From Aplysia californica (taxonomy: Eukaryota), in NCBI RefSeq assembly GCF_000002075.1, contig NW_004797382.1, positions 1,448,375-1,512,374 of the forward strand: a stretch of DNA of 64,000 nt, written 5' to 3'. Positions 1,586-14,540 of this stretch are shown in pieces. The number at the start of each line of letters is the position of its first letter. Positions within the stretch are counted from its first letter, which is position 1. A program made the translations under genes and the position numbers. Below the pieces are notes generated by a model. The model ran no database searches and was not told where the DNA came from. It saw only the letters and a program-made list of their open reading frames with translations.

Positions 1586-1920
1586 TCTACTCTATCCACT
1601 CTTCTCTATCCACTCTACTCTATCCACTCTTCTCTATCCACTCTTCTCTATCCACTCTTCTCTATCCACTCTTCTCTATCCACTCTTCTCTATCCACTCT
1701 TCTCTATCCACTCTTCTCTATCCACTCTTCTCTATCCACTCTACTCTATCCACTCTACTCTATCCACTCTTCTCTATCCACTCTACTCTATCCACTCTTC
1801 TCTATCCACTCTTCTCTATCCACTCTTCTCTATCCACTCTTCTCTATCCACTCTACTCTATCCACTCTACTCTATCCACTCTTCTCTATCCACTCTTCTC
1901 TATCCACTCTACTCTATCCA
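1586..1920 (+). repeat. 14-bp CT-rich tandem repeat (ctctatccactct[t/a]) running into the acceptor of exon 1925
   Basis: About 24 units; degenerate copies at about 1239-1340. Confidence 0.95.
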
Positions 1921-1924
1921 CCAG

Positions 1925-2030
1925 GTGGCGATGAGAATAAGTCTCAGGAAGTGGTCACTCAGCTGTTGCAGGAGGCTTTGGAAACAGAAACAGAAGACAG
2001 CAACAGGCAAACCTTCATCTCTTCCCAAGG
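1925..2030 (+). CDS. TBC1D2B: TBC1 domain family member 2B-like Rab-GAP, internal coding exon (GDENKSQEVVTQLLQEALE...SSQG); upstream exons lie outside the window
   Basis: cag acceptor at 1922-1924 and gtaag donor at 2031. Phase-2 end joins in frame to exon 2767. Confidence 0.8.
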
Positions 2031-2253
2031 GTAAGAAGAATGTTGTTTAGACTGGCTGATCCTGATCATAGGTGTGTTCAGTGAACACACTTCCCTCCTC
2101 CCAACATCTCTTGCAGGAGCTAGTGGAGTCTTCCATTCTCTGAACGTTTTTAAAATTATTTTTTTTTGGTATGTACCATTGTTGTGGACGGCCAGAATAC
2201 ATACATGTCTGGGTTGTTTTTTTCTCTTTCAACCTACAAGAGAAATTGTACTG

Positions 2254-2366
2254 CTTTGCACTGTTTTTGGCATGTCAAAGAAGCAAGTCTTTGCACTGTT
2301 TTTGGCATGTCAAAGAAGCAAGTCTTTGCACTGTTTTTGGCATGTCAAAGAAGCAAGTGTTTGCAC
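2254..2366. repeat. 35-bp tandem repeat, about 3 copies
   Basis: ctttgcactgtttttggcatgtcaaagaagcaagt at 2254, 2289 and 2324. Confidence 0.9.
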
Positions 2367-2766
2367 AAAAGTAAAGATTTTATTTCCCATTTGTGTTGAT
2401 CATTGTAGCAAATTCTTGTAGTTGCACATCAGTCTTGAGTGGAGACCTGAAATATTGAGTTAAACAATTATTAGAAACCTGCTTTGAAAAACATGGAAAA
2501 CATTTGCGCCTGTTCTTTTTCTTAGGTTTTTATATTTTGACAGAAAGTTCAGCGTTTGAAAGTAATTCCTTTTAACTAATTAAATTGGGCAAGTCTCTTT
2601 CTGTGAAGCCTTGAGTCATACCTTAACCCCTCCCCCCCCCTAAAGAAAGACAAAAACAAATTTATTTTAAAAAACGAGGATTCTGACCTGAACAATGCAT
2701 GTAACACATCACATGTCAGTTCTCTTATTGTACTCCACTACAATTTGAATCATGCTCACTTTGCAG

Positions 2767-2881
2767 GAAGGAGTATGACCGCTTCGGCTTCCTCAAGTTT
2801 GGCCATGATGAGGATGATGTCCTGCTGTCGAGAGCCAACATTCTCCAGCGCCAGTCCGTTGAGATAGGGTACATGATCCGG
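2767..2881 (+). CDS. TBC1D2B: TBC1D2B-like exon (KEYDRFGFLKFGHDEDDVLLSRANILQRQSVEIGYMIR)
   Basis: ttgcag acceptor and gtaggt donor. The YDxxGF motif typically precedes TBC domains. Phases match both neighbours. Confidence 0.85.
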
Positions 2882-10335: not shown

Positions 10336-10465
10336 GTACGTTGGGACGCAGTATTTTCTCCATTTCATCAGGAACATAGTGGGCTTTATGTATGTTTTTT
10401 TTTTCAATATTCTATAATGACTTCTTTCATATTTTTTTTTGGAAATGCGCTATATAAATGTTATA

Positions 10466-10515
<50 letters not shown>

Positions 10516-10848
10516 TTCCTGTTTTGTGTTTTTCTCCTATTTGACAGAATATGGTACACAATCTCTAGAAGGGGTTTTCAATTTCCCCCAAGTCAGTATG
10601 AAGATGTTCATACTCGTTAGATAATTGCTATCTGTCAATTTGCTTGCATAAAATACTATATCTTCAAAGTTAATGTTTTTCTAAGTAATGTTTTTTTGGT
10701 CATTCTGTGTGAAGTGAAGATCTGTCTGAATCTGAAGTAAGAGAGTTAGGTGTTCTACTTCTAACATTATATATCGGCTGTCGGTTATATTTACTGTGTC
10801 AATGTTCTTCCTTGTAATAAGACAAATCCAAAATTAATAAACAAATAG

Positions 10849-11031
10849 TTTAGTTTTAGTAGAAGTTTTACGGCGCTCGCAACTGCATAAGGTCATATGA
10901 GCGGCAGAAGATTAGAGGTGTTACACAAGAGAGTAACAAACATAAAAAAGAACAAGGGGAGATAAAGACGATAGATGTTTGATAGGAAAGAAGAAGCAAA
11001 CCACACCAGAGCACCCGCCAACCACCCACAC
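10849..11031 (-). mobile_element. ~175-bp short retroposon (family A), copy 1
   Basis: Target-site duplication (TSD) aaacaaatag at 10839-10848 and 11032-11041; similar to the copies at 23494, 39570, 45050 and 61147. Confidence 0.8.
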
Positions 11032-12080
11032 AAACAAATAGGCAAATGCATTAAACATTTTCCAGGAAATAATGAGCTAATGAGGTCTTTATTTGCCGTG
11101 AGGCGCTTATGTGAAACGTTTAACTAATATAGTAACAAACTTTTACCTTGTCTCTCTGATTACAATGCTAACAGATGTTTGAACATATTTTCTCTCTTCC
11201 CACCTTTGACTGATTTTCTCATTCTATCTGTGTCCTTTTTTCCGTACTCATCTTTTTGTCCCTCTGTTTGTCTGTCTATCTGACTTTCTGTCTGTCTCAT
11301 TGTCTATCTCTCTGTCTCTTTCTCATACACCCACTCAGGCATACAAACGCTCACACAGCCACACCCTCACTCATAAGTGCATACACACATGCTCTCACTC
11401 ATAAGTGCATACACACATGCTCTCACTCATAAGTACATACACACATGCTCTCACAGATATGCGCACTTAAGCATGAATTACTGATGCACTCTCATATACA
11501 CATACACGGTATTGTTTTTCATTTGACAACAAGGCTATTGGTTTCTGTTCTTTACCTGGTGCATCTTATTTTTCTCCTTGTAAATGAACCTTACTGTGTT
11601 TCCATGTTTGTAGCTCAAACAGTGGAATGACTTCTTCTCCTTTCATTCTCAAGGCTCAAGGCTCCACACAAATTGTAATATCACGCAGCGGCAGATATGT
11701 TCCTCCAAAAACAAAGAAAGAAAGATATAAAAGGAGTTTTTTACCATCTAGCATAAGGCTTTTGTCAGAATGAGCATAGTTGTGTCTTGCTCTTAGAGTA
11801 TGTATCTTTATATAACTCCAAAGGTCTAGTATTTAAATTCCTGCATGTGGTTGAATGATGCATTTGATGTAAATGTACATTTTGTCAGCTTTACTTCTCC
11901 TTTCATATTGAATTTTAATGAGAGTAATATATATAATTTAAAATTTTAAAAATTTTTATTAAAAAAAAAAAATACCTGCATGTGTTTTTACGGTCCTGTA
12001 CAGCCAAGGAAAATTTCCCTCTGGGATAATGAAGTATTATCTTATCTTTTCTCTTATCTCATTCCACTTCTTTGTTCCAG

Positions 12081-12215
12081 GTGCTCTTCCGTTTTGCCCT
12101 AGCCTTCCTCAAGTACGTGGAAGATGACATTCTGGAACAGTCCAGCACTCTTGCCATCAATCGGTACATGCGTACCCTGGGGGAAAACATTACTGACGTG
12201 AGGAAGATAGCCACT
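12081..12215 (+). CDS. TBC1D2B: TBC1D2B-like exon (VLFRFALAFLKYVEDDIL...ENITDVRKIAT)
   Basis: ttccag acceptor and gtaagt donor. Completes the EGSK-VLFRFALA TBC motif. Confidence 0.92.
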
Positions 12216-14540
12216 GTAAGTACCAGCGTCTATTCTACTGTACAACTTGCTTTCTATTGATGCACTACAGTGATAGAAATATTGAGCAGGAGCCACTGTT
12301 AGTACGAGCGTCTATTCTACTGGACAACTTGCTCTCTATTGATGCACTACAGTGATAGAAAACATTACTGACGTGAGGAAGATAGCCACAGTAAGTACGA
12401 GCATCTATTCTACTGGACAACTTGCTTTCTATTGATGCACTACAGTGATAGAAAACATTACTGACATGAGGAAGATAGCCACAGTAAGTACGAGCATCTA
12501 TTCTACTGGACAACTTGCTTTCTATTGATGCACTACAGTGATAGAAAACATTACTGACGTGAGGAAGATAGCCACAGTAAGTACGAGCATCTATTCTACT
12601 GGACAACTTGCTTTCTATTGATGCACTACAGTGATAGAAAACATTACTGACGTGAGGAAGATAGCCACAGTAAGTACGAGCATCTATTCTACTGGACAAC
12701 TTGCTTTCTATTGATGCACTACAGTGATAGAAAACATTACTGACGTGAGGAAGATAGCCACAGTAAGTACGAGCGTCTATTCTACTGGACAACTTGCTTT
12801 CTATTGATGCACTACAGTGATAGAAAACATTACTGACGTGAGGAAGATAGCCACAGTAAGTACGAGCATCTATTCTACTGGACAACTTGCTTTCTATTGA
12901 TGCACTACAGTGATAGAAAACATTACTGACGTGAGGAAGATAGCCACAGTAAGTACGAGCATCTATTCTACTGGACAACTTGCTTTCTATTGATGCACTA
13001 CAGTGATAGAAAACATTACTGACGTGAGGAAGATAGCCACAGTAAGTACGAGCATCTATTCTACTGGACAACTTGCTTTCTATTGATGCACTACAGTGAT
13101 AGAAAACATTACTGACGTGAGGAAGATAGCCACAGTAAGTACGAGCGTCTATTCTACTGGACAACTTGCTTTCTATTGATGCACTACAGTGATAGAAAAC
13201 ATTACTGACGTGAGGAAGATAGCCACAGTAAGTACGAGCGTCTATTCTACTGGACAACTTGCTTTCTATTGATGCACTACAGTGATAGAAAACATTACTG
13301 ACGTGAGGAAGATAGCCACAGTAAGTACGAGCATCTATTCTACTGGACAACTTGCTTTCTATTGATGCACTACAGTGATAGAAAACATTACTGACGTGAG
13401 GAAGATAGCCACAGTAAGTACGAGCATCTATTCTACTGGACAACTTGCTTTCTATTGATGCACTACAGTGATAGAAAACATTACTGACGTGAGGAAGATA
13501 GCCACAGTAAGTACGAGCATCTATTCTACTGGACAACTTGCTTTCTATTGATGCACTACAGTGATAGAAAACATTACTGACGTGAGGAAGATAGCCACAG
13601 TAAGTACGAGCATCTATTCTACTGGACAACTTGCTCTCTATTGATGCACTACAGTGATAGAAAACATTACTGACGTGAGGAAGATAGCCACAGTAAGTAC
13701 GAGCATCTATTCTACTGGACAACTTGCTCTCTATTGATGCACTACAGTGATAGAAAACATTACTGACGTGAGGAAGATAGCCACAGTAAGTACGAGCATC
13801 TATTCTACTGGACAACTTGCTCTCTATTGATGCACTACAGTGATAGAAATATTGAGCAGGAGCCACTGTTAGTACGAGCGTCTATTCTACTGGACAACTT
13901 GCTCTCTATTGATGCACTACAGTGATAGAAAACATTACTGACGTGAGGAAGATAGCCACAGTAAGTACGAGCATCTATTCTACTGGACAACTTGCTCTCT
14001 ATTGATGCACTACAGTGATAGAAAACATTACTGACGTGAGGAAGATAGCCACAGTAAGTACGAGCATCTATTCTACTGGACAACTTGCTCTCTATTGATG
14101 CACTACAGTGATAGAAAACATTACTGACGTGAGGAAGATAGCCACAGTAAGTACGAGCATCTATTCTACTGGACAACTTGCTCTCTATTGATGCACTACA
14201 GTGATAGAAAACATTACTGACGTGAGGAAGATAGCCACAGTAAGTACGAGCATCTATTCTACTGGACAACTTGCTTTCTATTGATGCACTACAGTGATAG
14301 AAAACATTACTGACGTGAGGAAGATAGCCACAGTAAGTACGAGCATCTATTCTACTGGACAACTTGCTCTCTATTGATGCACTACAGTGATAGAAAACAT
14401 TACTGACGTGAGGAAGATAGCCACAGTAAGTACGAGCATCTATTCTACTGGACAACTTGCTCTCTATTGATGCACTACAGTGATAGAAATATTGAGCAGG
14501 AGCCACTGTTAGTACGAGCATCTATTCTACTGGACAACTT
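12183..14540 (+). repeat. 93-bp tandem array derived from the exon 3' end plus 5' splice site
   Basis: Founding unit at 12183; standard units from 12358 (x16) and 13928 (x6); 82-bp variant units at 12276, 13846 and 14486 (partial). Confidence 0.97.

What the first reader, a model, noticed from the sequence alone, without database searches (positions are those of the whole stretch)
1586..14540. Recurring pattern: unrelated tandem repeats arise at splice junctions of one gene
Seen: four unrelated units each include or abut a functional splice site of the TBC1D2B-like gene. They are 14 bp at acceptor 1924, 35 bp at acceptor 3910, 67 bp at acceptor 5502 and 93 bp at donor 12215. In each case the functional site is the terminal unit and the expansion runs into the intron. 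No such junction repeats were seen at METTL4 or PTB exons. Inference: either a mutational process focused on exon boundaries (nucleosome edges, R-loops, splicing-coupled pausing) or selection that tolerates only intron-ward expansion. It could be a route to new splice sites and micro-exons.
Basis: partly seen in the sequence, partly recalled or inferred. Interest (0 to 1): 0.7.

Follow-up and report, generated by a model that had tools for sequence, protein, structure and literature searches.

The report
Repeats and SINEs crowd exon edges
The four repeats next to splice sites in this sea-slug gene are real, and a genome sample shows long-unit duplications and one jumping element piling up within about 50 bases of predicted exon edges, likely because DNA gains start more often there and splicing likely filters which ones survive.

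Summary
All four arrays exist. Three (35, 67, 93 bp) copy a splice site; the 14-mer has no AG and only abuts one. The gene is not special: 41 of 843 splice sites sampled elsewhere in the genome look the same, and the whole gene scores 4 of 36 (p=0.10). By plain overlap there is no enrichment (3.7% against 5.1% in introns). By array ends there is: units of 30 bp or more end within -30..+50 nt of a junction 6.5-fold more often than deeper in introns; shorter units do not. Spanning duplicates occur at 16 of 404 donors but 2 of 414 acceptors. A roughly 175-bp SINE places its branch-point-like tail, in sense, within 60 nt of 41 of 416 acceptors; mammalian introns show depletion there. Best reading: an exon-edge zone of DNA gain or retention plus a splicing filter. 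Every duplicated site here would give a stop codon, so no new exon is supported. Splice sites are predicted; no RNA covered them; bins were set after seeing data. The scan noted single cases of the donor array and SINE acceptor before in this genome; the rates are new.

The parts
1584..1921 (+). 14-bp pyrimidine-rich array without AG; forms a 340-nt AG-free zone before the acceptor; short-unit class, not enriched at junctions
1925..2030 (+). TBC1D2B exon (first in window; nine more exons lie 17-36 kb upstream)
2767..2881 (+). TBC1D2B exon, no junction array
3294..3442 (+). TBC1D2B exon, no junction array
3839..3916 (+). 35-bp duplication spanning the acceptor (6 exon bases); identical pseudo-acceptor at 3876 would shift the frame to a stop
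3911..4019 (+). TBC1D2B exon
4767..5035 (+). three old, diverged copies of the acceptor of the 5503 exon; none keeps AG at the aligned position
5277..5503 (+). 67-bp array; three pseudo-acceptors (5302, 5369, 5436) score like the real one and are followed by stops
5503..5634 (+). TBC1D2B exon
6134..6247 (+). 35-bp array related to the 67-bp unit, downstream of the exon
   Evidence: 1 of 18366 random stretches scored as high
6449..10860 (+). 2.2-kb tandem copy of two exons (6747-6884, 7952-8128; again 8952-9089, 10159-10335); likely two alleles assembled in tandem
12081..12215 (+). TBC1D2B exon; its donor scores weakly (6th percentile)
12183..14540 (+). 93-bp donor-spanning array (33 exon + 60 intron bases); 22 downstream GTAAGT donors outscore the real one, 3 variant units carry GTTAGT
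15249..15326 (+). TBC1D2B exon
16507..16638 (+). last coding exon of TBC1D2B
10849..11030 (-). copy of the high-copy SINE, antisense to the gene
45050..45224 (-). reference copy of the SINE with 3' hairpin, tail repeat and target-site duplication

Best explanation
These arrays are local tandem duplications of splice-junction DNA, likely silent, and they are one gene's share of a genome-wide pattern in which long-unit duplications and insertions end within about 50-75 nt of predicted exon edges, likely because nicks arise or gains are kept more often there. Shown: the sequences, the frame, the sample rates. Inferred: a duplication with one end near the exon edge grows by unequal exchange; splicing then filters it. 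A copied donor lies downstream of the real one and would be ignored if the first donor wins, as in human F7 intron 7. A copied acceptor lies upstream, would compete, and is rarer or loses its AG. The SINE survives in the acceptor zone because its target-site duplication rebuilds the pyrimidine tract and its tail would supply a branch point. The 14-mer is likely an ordinary expanded pyrimidine tract.
For: Long-unit ends 36 near vs 65 far, 6.5-fold (bootstrap 4.4-9.4); short units 11 vs 114, 1.1-fold. Holds in both gene batches, in introns with 800 nt of reach and for strong sites. Array ends before real acceptors 23 of 332 vs 24 of 1602 non-exon pseudo-acceptors. Spanning duplicates: donors 16 of 404, pseudo-donors 35 of 2470 (p=0.0015), acceptors 2 of 414 (p=0.0006 vs donors); first seen in batch 1 (9 of 253 vs 2 of 263), repeated in batch 2 (7 of 160 vs 0 of 159, p=0.015). 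Three old acceptor copies lack AG. SINE tails 15-45 nt before acceptors 32 vs 87 far, 10.5-fold (6.7-15.5), 23 of 332 real vs 7 of 1602 pseudo-acceptors, with no age difference. Tail words ACTA, CTAA, AACT are enriched in the branch zone of SINE-free acceptors. Other repeats: 2.6-fold after donors. F7 precedent (PMC1557585).
Against: Overlap of arrays with junctions is below intron background (31 of 844 vs 5.1%). Acceptor-spanning duplicates are not significantly below pseudo-acceptors (2 of 414 vs 24 of 2803, p=0.57), so purging is inferred only from the donor contrast. Young long arrays are less enriched (6 vs 23, 3.1-fold) than older ones (30 vs 42, 8.4-fold), which points to retention as well. 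This gene has two acceptor-spanning arrays with intact pseudo-acceptors, the rare class. The batch-2 donor contrast ranges from p=0.007 to 0.067 over seven settings. Bins and the 30-bp cut were chosen after seeing pooled data. Splice sites are predicted, from eight conserved gene families and 1.26 Mb of 927 Mb.
Confidence: 0.6

Rival explanations
1. Retention only: duplications arise evenly, but those beside an exon are sheltered from larger deletions and their terminal unit is conserved, so they stay recognisable longer.
For: Enrichment rises with array age (3.1-fold young, 8.4-fold older); many unrelated repeat families lie near donors.
Against: Young long arrays are still enriched (p=0.023). 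The SINE shows no age or 5' completeness difference (17 of 41 vs 42 of 91). Only tail-toward-exon SINE copies are enriched; head-toward-exon copies are not (5 vs 53, 1.0-fold at donors). Short units are not enriched.
Confidence: 0.22
2. Chance in a minisatellite-rich genome, plus artefacts of predicted exon boundaries and post-hoc binning.
For: 4.1% of sampled DNA is minisatellite and junction overlap is not enriched; gene counts are not significant beyond the chosen 19 sites.
Against: Boundary caller recovered 8 of 9 window exons exactly; effects repeat in a second batch and fail at pseudo-sites.
Confidence: 0.12
3. The arrays are regulatory: copied sites tune splicing, feed nonsense-mediated decay or seed micro-exons.
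For: Pseudo-sites score as well as or better than the real ones; each 93-bp unit has an AG, 38 nt and a GT.
Against: The 38-nt piece opens with two stops and its acceptor is at the 5th-6th percentile; the other uses translated reach stops. No conservation test was possible.
Confidence: 0.06

Closest known systems
Human F7 intron 7 37-bp VNTR (PMC1557585; abstract and Discussion read)
   Same: First unit spans the exon-intron boundary; downstream units carry donor copies; intron-ward array.
   Different: Here 93 bp and about 25 copies; copies outscore the real donor; silence is not shown. About 4% of sampled donors carry such a copy, and acceptors far fewer.
Internal tandem repeats at exon-intron boundaries in human segmental duplications (PMC2812944; outline and first part of Results read)
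   Same: Minisatellites, about 30-bp units on average, at exon-intron boundaries change intron length.
   Different: That set is limited to recent paralogs; in the part read I saw no donor/acceptor contrast or distance profile.
Intron gain by tandem genomic duplication of AGGT (PMC3443670; passages)
   Same: Duplication creates extra splice signals; the 35-bp copy has AGGT at both ends.
   Different: Units here are mostly intronic and give stops, not a frame-preserving new intron.
Mammalian transposon under-representation zones (PMC3088655; abstract and one Results section)
   Same: More elements near donors than acceptors; human Alu shows a sense bias near exons.
   Different: Mammals show depletion near exons, strongest at acceptors; here one SINE is about 10-fold enriched 15-45 nt before acceptors.
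Tandem repeats near intron-exon junctions in green algae (PMC3887541; passages)
   Same: Repeat density rises toward intron ends.
   Different: The passages concern short motifs such as GT/AC; here short units are not enriched.
Mollusc SINEs (PMC4758252, passages and 4 supplementary files searched; PMC11481361, passages)
   Same: Short retroposons with target-site duplications and LINE-type tails, common in genes.
   Different: Aca_CORE_1/2 are 338 and 226 bp with about 10,000 and 6,400 copies; this one is about 175 bp with roughly 390,000 copies by extrapolation. The word 'splice' does not occur in PMC11481361; 'intron' does not occur in PMC4758252.

Membership tests
F7-type junction-spanning VNTR | terminal unit contains the functional splice site | tested here: met
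   93-, 35- and 67-bp arrays; not the 14-mer
F7-type junction-spanning VNTR | other units keep intact pseudo-sites | tested here: met
   22 GTAAGT donors; 1 and 3 pseudo-acceptors
F7-type junction-spanning VNTR | only the authentic site is used | tested here: inconclusive
   three RNA runs gave no exon reads
F7-type junction-spanning VNTR | copy number varies between individuals | tested here: inconclusive
   multi-copy contig in X5, X6, X8, but contig depth is not copy number
Intron gain by tandem duplication | duplicated splice signals define a new intron and keep the frame | tested here: not met
   each use translated ends in a stop
SINE (non-autonomous retroposon) | target-site duplications | tested here: met
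   7-17 bp in 87 of 169 full copies vs 16 of 169 mismatched pairs
SINE (non-autonomous retroposon) | 3' stem-loop and short tail repeat | tested here: met
   z=-2.5; two stem pairs change on both sides in 30 and 40 of 216 copies
SINE (non-autonomous retroposon) | Pol III RNA-derived head | tested here: inconclusive
   no Rfam match, no tRNA call
SINE (non-autonomous retroposon) | partner LINE with the same tail | not tested
Mammalian-type under-representation zone | elements depleted near exons, most at acceptors | tested here: not met
Branch-point exaptation | lariat branch maps to the SINE tail | not testable with these tools
   only position and word enrichment

The most novel reading that the evidence does not exclude
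In this sea hare the first 50-75 nt of intron beside each exon are a mutational hotspot, and a SINE with several hundred thousand copies is steered there tail-first: it inserts into the pyrimidine tract, duplicates it, and replaces the branch point of about one intron in ten. Long-unit duplications come from the same exon-edge nicks, and first-donor choice decides which survive.
Probability: 0.3. Interest if true: 0.85.

Novelty: new variant of a known kind. Interest (0 to 1): 0.62.

Why it matters
Single junction-spanning repeats are known curiosities. A genome where about 4% of donors and 0.5% of acceptors carry them is a natural test of how the spliceosome chooses among identical sites in an invertebrate. 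A SINE enriched where mammalian introns exclude insertions would show that a mobile element can rebuild 3' splice signals at scale, and would make exon-edge mutation bias testable with population data. For TBC1D2B itself the arrays are likely without consequence.

Tried and rejected
RNA: no RNA holder listed; three raw poly(A) runs laid on 1895-7090 gave reads only on repeats, none on exons, so no verdict on splice-site use. Protein kinase hits were dropped: mostly long single-exon matches. Of 497 anchors entered, 462 were used (16 without DNA, 14 long, 5 on the window's contig); only 117 of 120 dynein, 40 of 83 phosphatase and 33 of 53 UCH hits were entered. About 0.4 Mb of further planned DNA was not obtained, so the sample stops at 1.26 Mb. 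TRF alone misses the donor unit at 12183, so a 24-mer copy test was added; that test in turn misses the 67-mer junction. Sequence preference of the SINE target: none clear in 49 sites; bases after the tail are not acceptor-like elsewhere (6.9% of 333 vs 5.8% random). Short-intron bias rejected. Gene-specific clustering rejected. A true exon 6-7 duplication: no listed contig bridges its junction and depths match single-copy flanks, but holes prove nothing. Literature: nine searches ran; none listed a paper on SINE enrichment at branch points or a donor/acceptor contrast of spanning repeats; the library lacks most subscription journals. Supplementary file 1 of PMC4758252 could not be searched and may name the SINE.
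Full report
Setting. The window is G000:C112:1448375-1512374 of a 927-Mb genome. Best protein matches are gastropod TBC1D2B. A supplement gives 927 Mb for Aplysia californica and earlier scan notes name the sea hare, so the species is inferred. Ten exons from 1925 to 16638 join in one open frame and match relatives exon by exon; nine more exons lie upstream.

The four arrays. All exist. The 14-mer has no AG and stops 3 nt before the exon, leaving a 340-nt AG-free zone. 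The 35-mer copies the acceptor with 6 exon bases; its twin at 3876 scores the same and would shift the frame to a stop. The 67-mer carries three pseudo-acceptors that score like the real one, each followed by a stop. Alignment shows three older copies at 4767-5035, one keeping 11 exact exon bases, none with AG at the aligned place. The 93-mer begins in the exon (33 exon + 60 intron bases), has 26 unit starts, and 22 donors that outscore the weak real one. Read-through stops 15 codons into the intron; the possible 38-nt micro-exon opens with two stops. A multi-copy contig of the unit lies in three other runs.

Test set. With no annotation, I anchored exons on eight Pfam families, fetched DNA and placed boundaries with a codon and splice-site model that recovered 8 of 9 window exons. 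This gave 849 sites on 152 other contigs in 1.26 Mb, holding 349 minisatellite arrays; 836 sites after removing duplicates.

Is the gene special? No. 41 of 843 sites have an array within 10 nt or spanning. Against that rate 4 of 19 gives p=0.012, but 4 of 36 for the whole gene gives 0.10 and 4 of 48 for the window 0.20.

Is there enrichment? By overlap, no: 31 of 844 against 5.1% in introns, ratio 0.72 (0.49-0.98). By array ends, yes: ends facing the exon run at about 0.25 per kb deep in introns and 1.28 per kb in the last 50 nt before acceptors. The excess is confined to units of 30 bp or more: 6.5-fold (4.4-9.4) against 1.1-fold for short units. It holds in both batches, in long introns and at strong sites, and is far lower at pseudo-acceptors. 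Bins were chosen after seeing pooled data.

Donors against acceptors. A 24-mer across the junction has an intron-ward copy at 16 of 404 donors and 2 of 414 acceptors (p=0.0006). Pseudo-donors give 35 of 2470 and pseudo-acceptors 24 of 2803, so donors are enriched while acceptors are only not enriched. The contrast was noticed in batch 1 and recurred in batch 2. It fits the F7 result that the most upstream donor wins (PMC1557585); that this holds here is inferred.

An unexpected companion. Six of 27 acceptor-side arrays overlapped one dispersed repeat. It is about 175 bp, with target-site duplications (87 of 169), a 3' hairpin and a short tail repeat: a SINE by these tests, head unidentified. 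Its tail lies in sense within 60 nt of 41 of 416 acceptors, 10.5-fold enriched at 15-45 nt, against 7 of 1602 pseudo-acceptors. Several of 17 full-length near copies duplicate the pyrimidine tract, one the AG too. Near and far copies are equally old. Antisense copies with the tail toward a donor are also enriched, on small numbers (5 vs 14); head-toward-exon copies are not. Other repeat families are 2.6-fold enriched after donors and 1.6-fold before acceptors. Mammalian introns are depleted in these zones (PMC3088655).

Mechanism. Three kinds of DNA gain end near exon edges, and only near real exons. I favour an exon-edge zone of nicking, perhaps linker DNA beside exon nucleosomes (recalled idea, untested), helped by retention, then filtered by splicing. 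Retention has support from array ages but does not explain the SINE's polarity or equal ages. No RNA evidence was obtained.

Verdict. Observation partly confirmed; the one-gene and micro-exon readings fail; the exon-boundary idea gains real, sample-level support. Each local array is a known kind. New variant of a known kind; interest 0.62.

Noticed in passing
window 45050-45224, 10849-11030, 23495-23672, 39571-39741, 61140-61320; genome sample: High-copy SINE whose tail sits at branch-point distance of about 10% of sampled acceptors; sense copies outnumber antisense about 5 to 1 in introns.
   Followed up: partly
window 6449-8653 and 8654-10860: 2.2-kb tandem copy of two exons, 8 mismatches and one 2-nt gap, ending at a SINE tail; likely an assembly of two alleles.
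   Followed up: partly
window 6134-6247: 35-bp array related to the acceptor unit of the exon at 5503 but 500 nt downstream of that exon; origin unexplained.
   Followed up: partly
window 21721-21871: 51-bp array whose unit looks like the SINE hairpin and tail (seen by eye).
   Followed up: no
window 1238-1326: Degenerate relative of the 14-mer, separated from the main array by inserted sequence.
   Followed up: no
window 15369-15803, 25432-25870, 38784-39218: Roughly 440-bp element with terminal inverted repeats; relatives lie within 75 nt of 10 sampled junctions.
   Followed up: partly
window 4895-4955: Short repeat on which many poly(A) RNA reads end; reads come from copies anywhere in the genome.
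   Followed up: no
window 28347-29590: Broken reverse-transcriptase-like LINE fragment (seen by eye, not tested).
   Followed up: no
G000:C752:179007-180090: Dynein exon pieces repeated in tandem (three hits to profile positions 133-173).
   Followed up: no
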